From assembly GCF_002854065.1 (NCBI RefSeq), contig NZ_CP024147.1: DNA of 64,000 nt. One strand, written 5' to 3'. This document shows, piece after piece, positions 10,855 through 61,545 of this stretch. Each line of letters starts with the position of its first letter. The first letter of the stretch is position 1. The notes beneath the pieces are model-generated. The model saw only the letters and a program-made list of their open reading frames with translations, was not told the origin of the DNA and did no database searches. The translations under genes and the position numbers were made by a program. The DNA comes from Escherichia coli. Its GTDB lineage: Bacteria; Pseudomonadota; Gammaproteobacteria; Enterobacterales; Enterobacteriaceae.

Positions 10855-10950
10855 TTATTCTCTTTCTGAATATAAAAATGAACCCTCAACGCTTCCCTCA
10901 ATGTTTGGGGAGCCATGCGGGTTCAATCATACACGGGAAGCGAGGCGCTT
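10855..10950 (-). ncRNA. sroE: Candidate SroE-type small RNA / structured element in the ispG-hisS spacer
   Basis: 110-bp spacer between ispG stop and hisS start contains a perfect 8-bp-stem hairpin (gggaagcg-cct-cgcttccc on the minus strand) and other structure; an sRNA called SroE is reported at this position in K-12 (recollection). Ends not determinable from sequence. Confidence 0.4.
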
Positions 10951-10962
10951 CCCATCACGTTA

Positions 10963-12081
10963 TTATTTTTCGACCTGCTGAACGTCAATTCGACGCGCTT
11001 CGTCCAGCTGACTGGCTTTCGCACGAATGCGTGCTTCCAGCTGGTCGATCATATCGTTGTTGTCCAGACGGTCTTTGCGCACGCCATCTTCATAGAGGCC
11101 GCTTTTCTTGTTGCCGCCGGTGACGCCGAGTGTAGAAACCAGCGCCTCACCCGGGCCATTCACCACGCAGCCGATAATCGAAACGTCCATCGGAGTGATG
11201 ATATCTTCCAGGCGTTGCTCCAGCGCGTTAACCGTACCGATAACATCAAACTCCTGACGCGAACAGGTCGGACAGGCGATGAAGTTGATACCTCGCGAAC
11301 GGATACGAAGCGATTTCAAAATATCGAAACCGACTTTGATCTCTTCGACCGGATCGGCCGCCAGTGATACGCGCAGCGTGTCGCCGATGCCTTCAGACAG
11401 CAGCAAACCTAAACCAATGGCGGATTTTACTGCCCCGCTGCGCGCGCCACCCGCTTCGGTGATCCCCAGATGCAGCGGCTGATCGATTTGTTTTGCCAGC
11501 AAACGATAAGACTCAACAGCGAGGAAGACGTCAGACGCTTTCACGCTGACTTTGAACTGATCGAAGTTCAGGCGATCGAGATGATCAACATGACGCATGG
11601 CGGATTCCAGCAACGCCTGCGGCGTCGGTTCGCCATACTTTTCTTGCAGATCTTTTTCCAGCGATCCGGCGTTAACGCCAATACGGATCGGAATGTTTTT
11701 ATCGCGCGCACAGTCAACCACCATGCGAATACGCTCTTCATTACCGATATTGCCAGGATTAATACGCAGACAATCGACGCCGTATTCCGCTACTTTCAGC
11801 GCAATGCGATAGTCGAAGTGGATGTCAGCCACCAGCGGCACGTTAACCTGCTGTTTGATGAGTTTGAACGCTTCTGCCGCGTCCATCGTCGGTACAGATA
11901 CACGGACGATATCAGCGCCAACGCGTTCCAGCGCCTTGATTTGATTGACCGTTGCTTCGACGTCTGTCGTACGCGTATTGGTCATGGACTGTACGGCGAT
12001 GGGAGCACCATCGCCAATCGGCACATTCCCAACGTAAATACGTGTTGATTTTCTACGTTGAATTGGAGCCTGGTTATGCAT
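10963..12081 (-). CDS. ispG: 4-hydroxy-3-methylbut-2-enyl diphosphate synthase IspG (GcpE)
   Basis: ORF track 372 aa, [39 protein letters not shown].. ; MEP-pathway enzyme. Confidence 0.95.
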
Positions 12082-23731: not shown

Positions 23732-23865
23732 GTTGAAATACTCTCTTTTATGCCTGGCTGTGTCAAGATAATAAACAGAGTAATTATTCAAACATGAGAG
23801 TATTATTCTTAATGGCCCTTTTCGCCGTCTCGCAAACGGGCGCTGGCTTTAGGAAAGGATGTTCC

Positions 23866-23961
23866 ATGACCGTAAATACAGGCACCCCACAGTGCTTGCT
23901 ATCGCGGCAATATCGCCAGTGGTGCTGTCGTGATGCGGTCTTCGCATGGACCGCACAATGA
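23866..23961 (+). CDS. Leader ORF (31 codons) with strong SD, translationally coupled to the downstream toxin-like ORF
   Basis: AGGAAAGGA 6 nt upstream of ATG; MTVNTGTPQCLLSRQYRQWCCRDAVFAWTAQ; its TGA stop overlaps the ATG of the next ORF (caATGA). Codons 5-10 coincide with the 16-nt antisense target. Coding status is inferred. Confidence 0.4.
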   Translation: MTVNTGTPQCLLSRQYRQWCCRDAVFAWTAQ

Positions 23962-24083
23962 AGATACGGTGCTTCTGTATCGTACTTATTGTTTCTGGTG
24001 CGCTGTTAACCGAGGTAAATAATAACCTGAGTCTCTCCGGCAACAATTTACTGGTGGTTAACAACCTTCAGAACAGCAGGTAA
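23958..24083 (+). CDS. Small hydrophobic toxin-like protein (41 aa), TimP/RyfA-type candidate
   Basis: MKIRCFCIVLIVSGALLTEVNNNLSLSGNNLLVVNNLQNSR; no own SD, start overlaps leader stop; identical amino-acid sequence in copy 2 with a single synonymous difference, whereas flanking DNA differs at many positions. Confidence 0.5.
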   Translation: MKIRCFCIVLIVSGALLTEVNNNLSLSGNNLLVVNNLQNSR

Positions 24084-24113
24084 GCCCGAATGCCGCCCTT
24101 TGGGGCGGCATAT

Positions 24114-24197
24114 TTAGATTATCCGATTCTGTTTAAAGTCACGCAAAAAACCACCCCAGCGACGTTCATAGAATGGCGCAATATGTTCGATATTAAA
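24114..24197 (-). pseudogene. Detached duplicate of the sseB 3' end (last ~25 codons plus stop)
   Basis: Minus-strand translation gives ..IEHIAPFYERRWGGFLRDFKQNRII*, identical to the C-terminus of the intact sseB at 24796-24880; no upstream coding continuation. Confidence 0.65.
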
Positions 24198-24311
24198 ATG
24201 ACCTGGCTTATTAGTCCGAATTCAGACAAATATAAACAAATCCCGCTCAATATTAAAAATACTAACCGGTAAAAGATATTACTTAAACATGTAAATTCAC
24301 TTTCTTTAAGC

Positions 24312-24415
24312 AACAAAAAACCGCCAAAATCAGGCGGTTATTTGTTGCCGGTTTGGTTCGCGGCCTCTCCAGCAGATTGACTTGTGTTGCATGAGCAACG
24401 CAGGTGCTTCACAGC
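24312..24415 (-). ncRNA. Candidate antisense sRNA of ryfA copy 2 (TimR/RyfB-like)
   Basis: Minus-strand promoter -35 TTGACA (24445-24450), 17-bp spacer, -10 GAATAT (24422-24427); 5' region complementary to caggtgcttcacagc (24401-24415), matching the copy-2 leader site caggtgtttcacagc (24560-24574) with one G-U wobble; terminator hairpin at 24318-24345. Confidence 0.45.
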
Positions 24416-24546
24416 AGAGCAATATTCGCCAGCAACTCTCTTTTTGTCAAGCAAAAGAGAGTAATTATTGTTTATTTAGCGTATTATCGACACCGGCCCT
24501 TTCCGCCGTCTCGCAAACGGGCGCTGGCTTTAGGAAAGGATGTTCC

Positions 24547-24642
24547 GTGGCCGTAAATGCAGGTGTTTCACAGCGCTTGCTATCGCGGCAATATCGCCAG
24601 TGGTGCTGTCGTGATGCGGTCTTCGCATGGACCGCACAATGA
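24547..24642 (+). CDS. Leader ORF of copy 2 (GTG start), coupled to the toxin-like ORF
   Basis: Same SD AGGAAAGGA; GTG instead of ATG; five amino-acid differences in the first 10 codons, all inside the antisense target; stop overlaps the next ATG. Confidence 0.35.
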   Translation: MAVNAGVSQRLLSRQYRQWCCRDAVFAWTAQ

Positions 24643-24764
24643 AGATACGGTGCTTTTGTATCGTACTTATTGTTTCTGGTGCGCTGTTAACCGAGGTAAA
24701 TAATAACCTGAGTCTCTCCGGCAACAATTTACTGGTGGTTAACAACCTTCAGAACAGCAGGTAA
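24639..24764 (+). CDS. Small hydrophobic toxin-like protein (41 aa), copy 2
   Basis: Same protein as copy 1 (MKIRCFCIVLIVSGALL..), one synonymous change (TTC to TTT). Confidence 0.5.
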   Translation: MKIRCFCIVLIVSGALLTEVNNNLSLSGNNLLVVNNLQNSR

Positions 24765-24795
24765 GCCCGAATGCCGCCCTTTGGGGCGGCATATT

Positions 24796-25572
24796 TTAGA
24801 TTATCCGGTTCTGTTTAAAGTCACGCAAAAAACCACCCCAACGACGTTCATAGAATGGCGCAATATGTTCGGTAATAAAGTGGCTAATTCCTTTTTCCCC
24901 TTTTTTCACCTGACAAATATCGATTGGTTCATCGCCAGGTAATGTATCGGTCGCTACACTTCCCGCCGCCTGAATAATTTCTTCGATATCACCATCGGCT
25001 TCAATGCCAATAAGTAAATTAGGCTGTGCCTCTTCGTTCTCTTTAATTGAACATATAAAAGCACGCTTCACCGGCTTAATAGTTTTAAATAAGGTGGTGA
25101 GTGAATCAATCATTTGTGCTGGCGGCTCTGCGACTTCCGATAATATTAGCGATTCACCGCCTTCCAGTACTTCCTGGCTACTCAGCGGATTCCCTTCTTC
25201 ACCAATCAACAAACTGATTTCACGCGGCATAAATTCTTTACCGGTTGGCAGTTTGGCATTAAGGAAGAGCGTTTCGCCAAGGGTCATCTCAAACAATGTG
25301 CGAACGGGCATTACTACAAATGCCTGTTCGTCTTCAACCGCCTGTTGAAGTGCTTCTAACGAGGTAAAAAAAGGAATGACGCTGGTGCCGTCTTCTTTTT
25401 CCCAATGCTGTAAATCAAGCGCACTATCTTCAACCACAGCCTCGCCCTGCGCCGCCGTACCAGGCACCCAGACGGTGGATCCCAGTAGAGTACGGAAAAA
25501 GGCCGGGCGGTGCGCCGGTTCGGTTGCTGCTTTTTCCAGCAGGTCTTCAAGTTCGTTTTTTGTTTCGGACAT
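24796..25572 (-). CDS. sseB: Protein SseB (enhanced serine sensitivity)
   Basis: ORF track frame 24796-25581; conserved start MSETKNELEDLLEKAATEP at ATG 25570-25572 (258 aa). Confidence 0.9.
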   Translation of the reverse strand: MSETKNELEDLLEKAATEPAHRPAFFRTLLGSTVWVPGTAAQGEAVVEDSALDLQHWEKEDGTSVIPFFTSLEALQQAVEDEQAFVVMPVRTLFEMTLGETLFLNAKLPTGKEFMPREISLLIGEEGNPLSSQEVLEGGESLILSEVAEPPAQMIDSLTTLFKTIKPVKRAFICSIKENEEAQPNLLIGIEADGDIEEIIQAAGSVATDTLPGDEPIDICQVKKGEKGISHFITEHIAPFYERRWGGFLRDFKQNRII

Positions 25573-30837: not shown

Positions 30838-32052
30838 TTAATGATGAGCCCATTCGATGCTGTTCAGATCCACGCCCTGCTTGTACATTTCCCACAGCGG
30901 AGAAAGGTCACGCAGACGACCGATGGATTTACGAACTAACTCGATGGTGTAGTCGATCTCTTCTTCAGTAGTAAAACGACCTAAAGAGAAACGGATAGAG
31001 CTATGTGCCAGCTCGTCGTTCAGCCCCAGCGCGCGCAGCACGTAGGACGGTTCGAGGCTTGCTGACGTACAGGCGGAACCGGAAGAAACCGCGAGGTCTT
31101 TCAGCGCCATAATCAGCGACTCACCTTCAACGTAGTTGAAGCTGACGTTGAGAATGTTCGGCGCACCGTGTTCCAGGTCACCGTTCAGGTAAACTTCTTC
31201 GATATCTTTGATGCCGTTCCACAGACGGTTACGCAGGCCGCGCAGACGTTCCATCTCGGTCGCCATCTCTTCTTTTGCGATGCGATAGGCTTCGCCCATT
31301 CCGACGATCTGGTGAACAGGCAGAGTGCCGGAACGCATACCGCGCTCGTGACCACCGCCGTGCATTTGCGCTTCGATGCGTACGCGCGGTTTACGACGCA
31401 CATACAGCGCACCGATACCTTTCGGGCCATAGATTTTGTGACCGGAGAAAGACATCAGGTCAACTTTCAACTGGCTCAGGTCGATAGGCAGTTTGCCCAC
31501 GCTCTGGGTTGCATCAACGTGATAGATAATGCCACGAGCACGGCACATTTCGCCGATAGCCGCGATATCCTGCACCACGCCGATTTCGTTATTTACGTGC
31601 ATGATGGAAACAAGGATGGTGTCGTCACGCATCGCTGCTTCAAGTTCTTTCAGGTCGATAATGCCGTTACGCTGCGGTGCCAGGTAGGTGACTTCGAAAC
31701 CTTCGCGCTCCAGCTGACGGCAGGTATCCAGTACCGCTTTATGTTCGGTTTTGCTGGTGATGATGTGCTTGCCTTTTTTCTGATAAAAGTTGGCTGCACC
31801 TTTGATCGCCAGGTTGTCAGATTCGGTTGCACCAGAGGTAAAGACGATTTCACGCGGATCAGCGCCGACCAGATCGGCAATCTGATTACGGGCGATATCT
31901 ACCGCTTCTTCAGCCTGCCAGCCGAAACGGTGAGAACGGGAGGCCGGGTTACCAAAGGTTCCGTCCATCGTCATAAACTGCATCATTTTCTCGGCAACAC
32001 GCGGGTCCACCGGCGTGGTTGCGGAGTAGTCGAGATAAATCGGTAATTTCAT
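30838..32052 (-). CDS. iscS: Cysteine desulfurase IscS
   Basis: ORF track frame 30838-32076; conserved start [16 protein letters not shown] at ATG 32050-32052 (404 aa); PLP lysine motif SFSGHK; active-site SSGSACTS. Confidence 0.95.
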
Positions 32053-32163
32053 TGCTCTATAAACTCCGTACATCACTCAATGCAAGGAACCAGGCTACCG
32101 GCTGGATGTACGACCGTGTTTACGGAGTATTTAGCACTCCGGCCTGATTCTGAATTCTTTTTA

Positions 32164-32652
32164 TTAAGCGCGTAACTTAACGTCGATCGCGTCTTGTGTG
32201 CGGGTGCGTGGCGCGTCGTGAGTATGCTGACGTCCAGACACATCCAGCACTTCCTGGTTATTAACCAGTTCGCCTAAAGTAATGTTGTTGAGAAAACCGG
32301 TGAGACGGTCGCTCAAATCACGCCACAGCGCGTGGGTCAGGCATTTATCGCCGCCCTGGCAGCCGCCTTTACCCTGACAACGGGTGGCATCTACAGATTC
32401 GTCAACGGCGCTAATCACTTCGCCAACGGCGATGCTGCTGGCATCTTTGCCTAACAGATAACCACCGCCTGGTCCACGTACGCTGGAAACCAGACCATTT
32501 TTACGCAGACGGGAAAACAGTTGTTCCAGATAAGAAAGGGAAATTCCCTGACGTTCGGAAATATCAGCCAACGGTACCGGGCCCGCTTCAGAGTTGAGCG
32601 CAACGTCAAGCATTGCGGTCACGGCATAGCGCCCTTTAGATGTCAGTCTCAT
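32164..32652 (-). CDS. iscR: Fe-S cluster regulator IscR (Rrf2 family)
   Basis: ORF track 162 aa, ATG; Rrf2 HTH and cluster-ligand cysteines ([13 protein letters not shown]). Confidence 0.95.
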
Positions 32653-32735
32653 GTCTTACTTCACCTCAAACTCGCCCCTGCCCGGGGTTTTTTATTGTAA
32701 AAGTGGGGGTATTGCATAGCAGGGTCAAGTCTGAC

Positions 32736-32787
32736 ATTCCCGAGTAAATTGGTCAACTATTTACTTGACTGATTTAGTCGGGTATTT
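32736..32787 (-). promoter_or_regulatory. iscR promoter region with two IscR type-1 operator-like sites
   Basis: Minus-strand reads ..AAATACCCGACTAAATCAGTCAAGTAAATAGTTGACCAATTTACTCGGGAAT.., matching my recollection of the two IscR sites upstream of iscR; not verified by search. Confidence 0.55.
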
Positions 32788-32827
32788 AACCTTCAGTGCC
32801 ATTTTTTTATCGTGGCGTTTGTACCTG

Positions 32828-32916
32828 TTGTCGGATGCGGTGTGAACACCTTATCCGACCTGGGATTCCGTGCACTTACAGGCCTGATAAGACGCGTTAA
32901 GCATCGCATCAGGCAA
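32828..32916. repeat. REP/BIME palindromic units
   Basis: gtcggatgcggtgtgaacaccttatccgacc and acaggcctgataagacgcgttaagcatcgcatcaggca between trmJ stop and the iscR promoter. Confidence 0.75.
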
Positions 32917-32922
32917 CCACTG

Positions 32923-33663
32923 TTATTCGGCCTTATTACCTTTATTCTGCTGCTCTATAGAAGCCAGAATCCCGCGCAGGATATTCAATTCCTGGCTTTC
33001 CGGGCGCGCACGGGTAAACAGACGGCGCAATTTATTCATCACCTGCCCCGGATGGTTTTCACGGATAAAACCGGTTGCCAGCAGCGTTTGTTCCAGATGA
33101 CCATAAAAACGCTCCAGATCATCGGCCAGCGGATACGGCGTCTCTTCATGCTCGACCTGCTCGCCATTTTCCTGAGTTGCCAGCCAGGCCATACGCACTT
33201 CATAGGCAATAACCTGAACCGCCATCGCCAGGTTCAGCGAGCTGTATTCCGGGTTTGCCGCAATCGCGACATGATAATGACACTTCTGCAACTCTTCATT
33301 GGTCAGGCCGACACGTTCGCGACCAAACACCAGCGCCACCGGGGTATTTGCCGCTTCAGCGACGCTTTTCAGACCGCATTCGCGCGGGTCGAGCATCGGC
33401 CACGGCAGCGTGCGGGAACGTGCGCTGGTGCCCACCACCAGGCTACAACCGGCTAACGCTTCGTCGAGCGTATCGACGATGTGAGCATTACCAATCACAT
33501 CGCTGGCCCCCGCCGCCAGGGCAATCGCCTGGGAGTCAGGTTTCACCAGTGGATTAACCAGCCACAGATTGGTTAATCCCATTGTTTTCATGGCACGGGC
33601 AACAGAACCCATATTGCCGGTGTGTGACGTCTCCACCAGCACAATTCGAATATTTTGCAGCAT
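32923..33663 (-). CDS. trmJ: tRNA (cytidine/uridine-2'-O)-methyltransferase TrmJ
   Basis: ORF track 246 aa, ATG; SpoU-class methyltransferase. Confidence 0.93.
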
Positions 33664-61360: not shown

Positions 61361-61545
61361 CAACAAAGCCGGGAATTACCCGGCTTTGTTATGGAATAAG
61401 GCGGTGCCTAACTCGACGTTTCGCCCGATGGTTGATATAGCTACGCTGATATCAGAAGTTGGACGGCAGGCACCTTGTTGTGCGTCATTCGAATTTTATG
61501 TAGCACGTCCCGAAGGGGCTGACATAAGTCGGTGAATGAGCCACT
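61361..61545 (-). ncRNA. glmY: Small RNA GlmY
   Basis: Minus-strand sequence AGTGGCTCATTCACCGACTTATGTCAGCCCCTTCGGGACGTGC...AAAGCCGGGTAATTCCCGGCTTTGTTG matches my recollection of GlmY (about 184 nt); terminator hairpin at 61365-61387 plus U-rich tail; sits 58 bp upstream of glrK. Confidence 0.85.

What the first reader, a model, noticed from the sequence alone, without database searches (positions are those of the whole stretch)
32053..32800. isc operon regulatory architecture appears intact
Two IscR type-1-like sites lie upstream of iscR, and a structured 111-bp iscR-iscS spacer is present (reported in K-12 as the site of RyhB-mediated discoordinate regulation). Nothing unusual; noted because it confirms the operon is wild-type in organisation.
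Basis: established knowledge. Interest (0 to 1): 0.2.

Follow-up and report, generated by a model that had tools for sequence, protein, structure and literature searches.

The report
Standard E. coli isc operon control region
This is the ordinary, already well-studied control region of the E. coli iron-sulfur cluster assembly (isc) operon, with two IscR repressor sites before iscR and the known RNA stability element between iscR and iscS, and it is intact and unremarkable here.

Summary
All features lie on the minus strand.

- **Gene layout:** iscR is 32164-32652, iscS starts at 32052, and the spacer between them is exactly 111 nt (32053-32163).
- **IscR sites:** The published type-1 consensus matches only twice in the 64 kb window, against 0.01 expected by chance. 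The two matches abut at 32761-32785 (site A, 1 mismatch) and 32736-32760 (site B, 3 mismatches). Both are kept in all 57 Enterobacteriaceae species sampled.
- **Spacer:** It is a full-length member of Rfam RF01517, the "iscR stability element" (136 bits against a cutoff of 40). Its long hairpin is backed by compensatory changes in 7 base pairs across 53 distinct sequences. The last 34 nt before the iscS AUG are 96% conserved, against 77% at iscS third codon positions. This fits a RyhB and ribosome binding site.
- **Comparison with known strains:** The region is 100% identical to an O157:H7 strain and differs from K-12 at 3 bases. One of these turns a U-A stem pair into U·G.
- **Operon:** iscRSUA-hscBA-fdx-iscX is complete.

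The spacer is single-copy, so it is not a true REP repeat.

Verdict: already known, low interest.

The parts
32761..32785 (-). IscR type-1 binding site A (ATACCCGACTAAATCAGTCAAGTAA)
   Evidence: It has 1 mismatch to the published type-1 consensus. It is one of only 2 hits in 64 kb, against 0.01 expected. A counterpart with 3 or fewer mismatches is present in all 57 species sampled, 127-134 nt upstream of the iscR ATG.
32736..32760 (-). [quoted passage not shown]
   Evidence: It has 3 mismatches to the consensus. It is conserved in all 57 species, 102-109 nt upstream of the ATG. That TTGACC is the promoter -35 element is inferred from the sequence and from my memory of Giel et al. 2006/2013. 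Those papers could not be read here.
32653..32720 (-). iscR 5' leader (start point inferred). It contains the hairpin CCCCGGGCAGGGG (32675-32687), a GAGG Shine-Dalgarno (32664-32667), FnrS complementarity GAAGUAAGACA (32652-32662, whose last base is the A of the AUG) and OxyS complementarity CGGGCAG (32678-32684)
Evidence: The sequence is identical to K-12, O157 TR01 and UTME-2. FnrS and OxyS regulation through this leader is published (PMC11572966). The 5' end at about 32720 rests on remembered site coordinates (site B at -40 to -16) and was not verified.
32164..32652 (-). iscR coding sequence (162 aa), with cluster ligands C92, C98, C104, H107 and residue E43 present
   Evidence: NCBIfam NF008110 IscR equivalog, 344.7 bits against a cutoff of 275. 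The protein is identical to K-12 WP_001241357.1. The ligand residues were checked.
32053..32163 (-). 111-nt iscR-iscS spacer, the iscRS 'iscR stability element'
   Evidence: Rfam RF01517, positions 1-110 of 110, 136.4 bits against a gathering score of 40, E = 2e-35. MFE is -30.9 kcal/mol with z = -2.16. It is single-copy in 5424 of 5426 E. coli genomes.
32087..32150 (-). Long branched hairpin of the spacer (spacer nt 14-77), the part proposed to protect the iscR 3' end. It includes the one non-coding difference from K-12 (G at 32090, A in K-12)
   Evidence: Helices 2 and 3 are 100% and 99% paired across 53 distinct sequences. Seven pairs show changes on both sides, and 0 of 500 shuffles reach the covariation score. 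The window's G pairs with U17 as U·G, a state seen in 15 of 53 sequences (37 have U-A). The cost is 0.6 kcal/mol.
32053..32086 (-). Invariant 3' third of the spacer, containing the iscS ribosome binding region (GGAG at 32064-32067) and the predicted RyhB pairing region. The predicted pairing registers extend beyond it, over 32049-32100
   Evidence: Mean identity across species is 95.7%, against 77% at iscS third codon positions. Two RyhB duplex registers are predicted, at -27.0 and -23.9 kcal/mol. The second includes GAGCAAUG with RyhB CAUUGCUC across the AUG. The literature places the RyhB site in this intergenic region and describes repression of iscS translation initiation.
30838..32052 (-). 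iscS coding sequence (404 aa); the true start is the ATG at 32052, not the upstream in-frame GTG at 32076 given by the mechanical ORF list
   Evidence: NCBIfam NF010611 IscS, 817 bits against a cutoff of 548. RefSeq annotation of the identical K-12 and O157 sequence agrees.

Best explanation
This is the canonical control region of the E. coli iscRSUA-hscBA-fdx-iscX operon, read on the minus strand, and it works at two levels.

1. **Transcription.** [2Fe-2S]-IscR binds two abutting 25-bp type-1 sites (A and B) that cover the promoter and represses its own operon. When Fe-S demand rises, or the cluster is oxidised or lost, IscR leaves these sites and the operon is derepressed.

2. **mRNA.** Under iron starvation the small RNA RyhB pairs with the 3' end of the 111-nt iscR-iscS spacer at the iscS translation start. 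This blocks iscS translation and triggers decay of the downstream iscSUA part. The long hairpin in the spacer shields the 3' end of the upstream iscR fragment. IscR, mostly in its apo form, therefore keeps being made and can switch on suf.

The iscR leader adds a further layer. FnrS pairs at the iscR ribosome binding site and represses translation. OxyS pairs with the leader stem-loop and activates it.

**Shown here:** the presence, position, statistics and conservation of the sites; family membership of the spacer; covariation of its hairpin; conservation of the 3' third; and complementarity to the sRNAs.

**Taken from the literature or inferred:** IscR binding, repression, RyhB-induced decay, protection by the hairpin, and the exact transcription start.
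For: - **IscR sites:** 2 hits against 0.01 expected, with both sites kept adjacent in 57 species. The consensus and the type-1/holo-IscR repression model come from PMC3899308, PMC6599224 and PMC12594620.
- **Spacer:** Rfam RF01517 at 136.4 bits, full length. Covariation supports helices 2 and 3. The 3' third is more conserved than synonymous sites.
- **RyhB:** the sequence was verified and is complementary to 32049-32100. The RyhB mechanism and the role of the intergenic structure are stated in PMC12533949, PMC11572966 and PMC7038943, all citing Desnoyers 2009.
- **Identity to studied strains:** the region is 99.6% identical to K-12 MG1655 and 100% identical to O157:H7 TR01. The promoter and leader are identical in all four strains aligned.
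- **Operon:** all eight isc genes score as NCBIfam equivalogs (HscA's top hit is a subfamily model) and the IscR ligand residues are intact.
Against: - Nothing contradicts the model.
- Thermodynamic support for the fold is only moderate, with z = -2.16 and 7 of 200 shuffles folding as well.
- The outer helix 1 of the Rfam structure is paired in only 81% of cells and shows no covariation.
- Helices 4 and 5 never vary and so give no evidence either way. Helix 4 lies inside the pattern used to fetch the loci.
- Two RyhB registers are predicted and I could not read the paper that maps the real one.
- The reported minor IscR site C is not detectable with the consensus. The third-best match upstream of iscR has 10 mismatches.
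- The sigma-70 consensus scan finds no promoter. The proposed -10 (CAGACT) is weak.
Confidence: 0.95

Rival explanations
1. The conserved 3' third of the spacer is constrained only by iscS translation initiation (Shine-Dalgarno, standby site, start codon context), and RyhB pairing adds no constraint of its own.
For: The block contains GGAG and ends at the AUG. Its 95.7% conservation would be expected for a ribosome binding region of an essential, highly expressed gene. The duplex predictions are ambiguous between two registers.
Against: The invariant stretch is 34 nt, much longer than a ribosome binding site needs. It holds an 8-bp perfect match (GAGCAAUG with CAUUGCUC) and a 10-bp match to the RyhB core. 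Published work reports RyhB action at this site. The two constraints are not mutually exclusive.
Confidence: 0.15
2. The spacer hairpin is a REP repeat or an internal transcription terminator or attenuator that produces an iscR-only transcript, rather than a dedicated RNA stability element.
For: The literature calls it a REP-like secondary structure. True REP palindromes sit 700 nt away, between trmJ and iscR.
Against: The spacer is single-copy per genome even under sensitive blastn. It gets no REP-type (naRNA4) hit, whereas the trmJ-iscR REPs do. No U-run follows the hairpin, and no terminator-like site is found on the minus strand in the spacer. iscS is co-transcribed with iscR according to the literature.
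Confidence: 0.04
3. The two IscR-motif matches are chance resemblances with no function.
For: Site B has 3 mismatches. The motif is AT-rich and palindromic.
Against: The expected number of hits is 0.01 and none of 100 shuffles gave two. The sites abut exactly and sit at a fixed distance from the iscR ATG in 57 species. The sequences are identical to the K-12 promoter, where the literature reports IscR binding and repression through type-1 sites.
Confidence: 0.01

Closest known systems
E. coli K-12 PiscR with IscR type-1 sites A and B (Schwartz 2001; Giel 2006, 2013)
   Same: The sequence from at least 170 nt upstream of the iscR ATG through the start codon is identical to K-12. The same two abutting 25-bp sites are present.
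   Different: Nothing within the promoter differs. Further upstream the trmJ-iscR intergenic region is about 180 bp shorter than in K-12 because K-12 has two extra REP-type units.
Rfam RF01517 iscRS, the iscR stability element (Desnoyers et al. 2009, RyhB-induced differential degradation of iscRSUA)
   Same: The match is full length with no indels at 136.4 bits. The length (111 nt) and position are the same.
   Different: There is one base difference from K-12 (G at 32090 instead of A). It changes a U-A stem pair to U·G, costs 0.6 kcal/mol, and is a state shared by 15 of 53 sequences sampled.
FnrS and OxyS control of the iscR 5' UTR (Baussier et al. 2024, PMC11572966)
   Same: The leader is identical to K-12. 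The FnrS-complementary GAAGUAAGACA lies at the ribosome binding site, and the OxyS-complementary CGGGCAG lies in the leader hairpin.
   Different: None detected. The exact published pairing diagrams could not be checked against my predicted blocks.
REP / BIME extragenic palindromes
   Same: The spacer has a stable GC-rich stem-loop at the 3' end of a cistron, proposed to block 3'-to-5' decay, as REPs do.
   Different: The spacer hairpin is single-copy and unrelated in sequence to REPs. It works like a REP stabiliser but is not a member of the repeat family.
Pseudomonas aeruginosa PiscR (sites A and B)
   Same: Two adjacent type-1 sites overlap the promoter.
   Different: P. aeruginosa is reported to lack the RyhB site between iscR and iscS, to lack site C, and to bind IscR stepwise or cooperatively rather than independently.

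Membership tests
IscR type-1 binding site | 25-bp match to ATASYYGACTRWWWYAGTCRRSTAT | tested here: met
   Site A has 1 mismatch and site B has 3. These are the only 2 hits in 64 kb against 0.01 expected. The consensus is quoted.
IscR type-1 binding site | Located at or over the core promoter of an IscR-repressed gene, and conserved in orthologous promoters | tested here: met
   The sites lie 84-133 nt upstream of the iscR ATG and abut each other. They are conserved at the same distance in 57 species. Overlap with the -35 element is inferred, because the transcription start was not verified.
IscR type-1 binding site | Bound preferentially by [2Fe-2S]-IscR, not apo-IscR | not testable with these tools
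   The literature reports this for the K-12 isc promoter's type-1 sites, and the window's promoter sequence is identical to K-12.
Rfam RF01517 iscRS (iscR stability element) | Covariance-model score above the curated gathering threshold, full length | tested here: met
   136.4 bits against 40, model positions 1-110 of 110, E = 2e-35.
Rfam RF01517 iscRS (iscR stability element) | Position between the iscR stop codon and the iscS start codon on the coding strand | tested here: met
   The hit at 32054-32163 (-) lies between iscR (32164-32652) and iscS (start 32052).
Rfam RF01517 iscRS (iscR stability element) | Consensus secondary structure maintained by compensatory change | tested here: met
   Helices 2 and 3 are met, with 7 covarying pairs and 99-100% pairing. 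Helix 1 is not supported (81% paired, no covariation). Helices 4 and 5 are invariant and so uninformative.
Rfam RF01517 iscRS (iscR stability element) | Stabilises the iscR fragment after RyhB-induced cleavage | not testable with these tools
   This is stated in the literature. The primary paper (Desnoyers 2009) is not held in the library.
RyhB target site | Complementarity to the single-stranded core of RyhB at the translation initiation region | tested here: met
   Two registers are predicted, at -27.0 and -23.9 kcal/mol, within 32049-32100. The second includes an 8-bp perfect match across the AUG. The RyhB sequence was verified. Which register is used remains unresolved.
RyhB target site | Conservation of the target region beyond neutral expectation | tested here: met
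   95.7% identity against 77% at iscS third codon positions. This is confounded with ribosome binding site constraint.
REP (repetitive extragenic palindrome) family | Many dispersed copies per genome sharing a consensus sequence | tested here: not met
   There is one place per genome in 5424 genomes under blastn 'distant' mode. The spacer gets no naRNA4/REP-type hit, whereas the trmJ-iscR palindromes do.

The most novel reading that the evidence does not exclude
Nothing in the window itself is novel. The most novel reading left open concerns the locus in other strains. The position directly after the iscR stop codon is a recurrent landing site for small palindromic elements. These include a 129-nt ERIC-like unit in 490 of 5426 complete E. 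coli genomes and 40-130 nt of extra sequence in most other Enterobacteriaceae sampled. Such inserts could change how well the iscR 3' end is protected, and so tune the RyhB-driven uncoupling of IscR from IscSUA between lineages. The window would then represent the short allele of a functional polymorphism.
Probability: 0.15. Interest if true: 0.35.

Novelty: already known. Interest (0 to 1): 0.07.

Why it matters
The finding matters only as a quality check. It shows that Fe-S cluster homeostasis control in this strain is expected to behave as in K-12. That covers IscR autorepression, RyhB uncoupling of iscR from iscSUA, and FnrS/OxyS input on the leader. No new biology follows from it. The spacer-length polymorphism seen in other strains and genera is a minor lead for anyone studying strain differences in iron-starvation responses.

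Tried and rejected
- **Primary papers.** I tried to read Desnoyers 2009 (PMC2693151), Giel 2013 (PMC4108476), Nesbit 2009 (PMC2709974), Mettert and Kiley 2024 (PMC11309008) and Balasubramanian and Vanderpool 2013 (PMC3672274). None is held. The exact RyhB pairing diagram, the transcription start and the site C coordinates therefore rest on secondary citations or my memory.
- **Promoter scan.** The sigma-70 consensus scan of 31900-33000 found no promoter. The proposed TTGACC-17 nt-CAGACT promoter falls below that tool's threshold.
- **Full-length duplex prediction.** Unconstrained RyhB, OxyS and FnrS duplex predictions over-extend into terminator hairpins and coding sequence. I used only the core-restricted RyhB prediction and the short perfect complementary blocks.
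- **REP membership.** I considered that the spacer might be a REP copy and rejected it because it is single-copy and has no REP-type hit.
- **Internal terminator.** I considered that the spacer might terminate transcription and rejected it because there is no U-run and no terminator-like hit on the minus strand.
- **Site C.** I looked for a third type-1 site (site C) with the consensus. The best remaining match has 10 mismatches, so it cannot be located this way.
- **ERIC literature.** A search for ERIC insertions at iscR-iscS found nothing relevant.

Full report
**Locus and strand.** The interval 32053-32800 lies in the E. coli isc locus, and everything relevant is on the minus strand.
- iscR occupies 32164-32652.
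- iscS starts at the ATG at 32052. The mechanical ORF list extends it to an upstream in-frame GTG at 32076, which is not the annotated start.
- The non-coding gap between the two genes is 32053-32163, exactly 111 nt.
- RefSeq annotation of identical sequence in K-12 and O157:H7 gives the same gene layout.
- Upstream lie trmJ (32923-33663, minus strand) and suhB (plus strand).
- Downstream, iscU, iscA, hscB, hscA, fdx and iscX all score above the curated cutoffs of their NCBIfam models, equivalogs in every case except HscA's top hit, which is a subfamily model.
- IscR carries E43, C92, C98, C104 and H107.

**How common the sequence is.** The 748-nt interval occurs once in 5424 of 5426 complete E. 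coli genomes.
- It is 100% identical to O157:H7 strain TR01 and 99.6% identical to K-12 MG1655.
- Alignment shows three differences from K-12. Two are third-position changes in iscR (GTG/GTA and GGA/GGT); the protein is identical to K-12's.
- The third is in the spacer, G at 32090 where K-12 has A.
- From about 170 nt upstream of the iscR ATG to the ATG itself, all four strains aligned are identical.

**IscR sites.** The type-1 consensus 5'-ATASYYGACTRWWWYAGTCRRSTAT-3' is quoted in PMC3899308 and PMC6599224.
- Allowing 3 mismatches, it matches only twice in the 64 kb window, at 32761-32785 (1 mismatch) and 32736-32760 (3 mismatches).
- Shuffles give an expectation of 0.01, and none of 100 shuffles yields two hits.
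- The two sites abut without a gap.
- I fetched the same locus from 57 other Enterobacteriaceae species. Both sites are present in every one with 3 or fewer mismatches, at 127-134 and 102-109 nt upstream of the iscR ATG.
[quoted passage not shown] It also states that E. coli has a third, minor and non-conserved site C.
- The consensus does not find site C here. The next best match has 10 mismatches.
- The TTGACC inside site B (32751-32756), followed 17 nt later by CAGACT, is my inferred promoter, with a start near 32720. This rests on remembered coordinates for the sites and was not verified. The generic promoter scan finds nothing.

**The spacer.** Folding gives -30.9 kcal/mol with z = -2.16, and 7 of 200 shuffles fold as well. 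Energy alone is therefore modest evidence.
- The decisive result is a full-length match to Rfam RF01517, "iscR stability element". It scores 136.4 bits against a gathering score of 40 and covers 32054-32163 on the minus strand.
- To test the structure independently I aligned 53 distinct spacer cores from 51 further Enterobacteriaceae sequences (one an E. coli strain) plus the window and K-12 (alignment A2). I then counted pairs for the Rfam structure.
- The long stem (helices 2 and 3, window 32087-32150) is 100% and 99% paired. Seven pairs change on both sides, and 0 of 500 shuffles reach the observed covariation score. Sliding the partners by 1 to 3 columns drops pairing to 31-49%.
- Outer helix 1 is only 81% paired and shows no covariation.
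- Helices 4 and 5 never vary. Helix 4 lies inside the DNA pattern I used to fetch the loci, so its invariance is by construction.
- The window's G at 32090 pairs with U17 of the spacer. This pair is U-A in 37 sequences, U·G in 15 and C-G in 1. The G costs 0.6 kcal/mol relative to K-12. It is a structure-preserving variant.

**RyhB.** My remembered RyhB sequence matches E. coli genomes at 100%. It lies between yhhX and yhhY and is recognised by Rfam RF00057.
- With RyhB restricted to its core (nt 28-69), two duplex registers are predicted on 32049-32100, at -27.0 and -23.9 kcal/mol.
- The second register includes a perfect 8-bp match, GAGCAAUG with CAUUGCUC, across the iscS start codon.
- I could not read the primary paper to learn which register was mapped.
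- Independently of the fetch pattern, the last 34 nt of the spacer (32053-32086) are 95.7% identical across species. iscS third codon positions are 77% identical and the apical loop 29%. This region is therefore under constraint, as expected for a combined ribosome and RyhB binding site.
- Three papers that I could read state the mechanism. [quoted passage not shown] The iscSUA part is degraded, and the structured intergenic region accounts for accumulation of the iscR fragment.

The iscR leader is itself a regulatory target. FnrS represses iscR translation and OxyS activates it, both by pairing with the 5' UTR (PMC11572966).
- The leader here is identical to K-12.
- It contains GAAGUAAGACA (32652-32662), complementary to FnrS UGUCUUACUUC.
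- It also contains CGGGCAG (32678-32684), within the hairpin CCCCGGGCAGGGG and complementary to OxyS CUGCCCG.
- The sRNA sequences were verified and the complementary blocks seen.

**Is the hairpin a REP?** The literature calls it REP-like.
- The spacer is single-copy per genome even under sensitive blastn.
- It draws no REP-type Rfam hit, whereas the genuine palindromes between trmJ and iscR do, weakly.
- It therefore behaves like a REP stabiliser but is not a member of that repeat family.

**Verdict.** Both the observation and the interpretation are correct. The region is textbook, already curated and essentially identical to the studied K-12 sequence. Novelty is "already known" and interest is low.

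The only mildly interesting by-product lies outside the window. The spacer length is polymorphic, being 110-124, 149-182 or 217-242 nt across genera. All the extra DNA is inserted right after the iscR stop codon. In addition, 490 of 5426 complete E. coli genomes carry a 129-nt ERIC-like insert there.

Noticed in passing
L003:938-1066 (E. coli UTME-2); the equivalent position in the window is between 32163 and 32164: Some strains carry a 129-nt ERIC-like insertion directly after the iscR stop codon, which makes the iscR-iscS spacer 240 nt. 490 of 5426 complete E. coli genomes have it, including ATCC 8739. The ERIC assignment rests on remembered ERIC1R/ERIC2 primer cores. No paper on this was found.
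   Followed up: partly
Loci L005-L081 (iscR-iscS spacers of other Enterobacteriaceae): Spacer length falls into classes of 110-124, 149-182 and 217-242 nt. All the extra sequence is inserted 5' of a conserved core of about 105 nt, immediately after iscR. This position looks like a recurrent insertion site for small palindromic elements.
   Followed up: partly
window 32125-32141 (apical hairpin of the spacer): Within E. coli the 111-nt spacer falls into distinct identity bands: 99% or more in 3160 genomes, 90-95% in 1460 and 80-90% in 455. At least part of this divergence sits in a second allele of the apical hairpin (GGGGCGUAUCGCGCUCC, as in UTME-2 and E. albertii), which still pairs. The spacer is far more divergent than the flanking genes.
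   Followed up: partly
window 32797-32947: REP-type palindromes lie between trmJ and iscR, giving weak sub-threshold naRNA4 hits. Copy number varies between strains. K-12 has two extra tandem units (the intergenic region is about 180 bp longer than the window's 270 bp), and O157:H7 TR01 has a 29-bp insert, CCCTTCGGGGAGAGGGTTAGGGTGAGGGG, that the window lacks. So the window is not TR01 despite 100% identity over the finding interval. The 401-nt stretch 32600-33000 is 100% identical to strains 100416, CUWW06 and one unnamed isolate.
   Followed up: partly
window 32674-32698, + strand: A terminator-like hairpin plus T-run sits on the plus strand (GCCCCTGCCCGGGGT followed by TTTTTATTGT). It is the reverse complement of the iscR leader hairpin preceded by an A-run. 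There is no plus-strand gene upstream for it to terminate. Whether it stops antisense transcription is unknown.
   Followed up: no
window 23812-24797, + strand: Two full-length ryfA copies (23812-24116 and 24493-24797) flank an IS128 sRNA match (24147-24357). From memory, K-12 has a single ryfA, so this looks like a tandem duplication.
   Followed up: no
window 2351-2393 (+), 10872-10963 (-), 61398-61545 (-): Other curated small RNAs are present in the window: ES036/CssrF, sroE and GlmY.
   Followed up: no
window 32053-32076, - strand: The mechanical ORF list extends iscS to an in-frame GTG at 32076, inside the spacer. The annotated and family-supported start is the ATG at 32052.
   Followed up: yes
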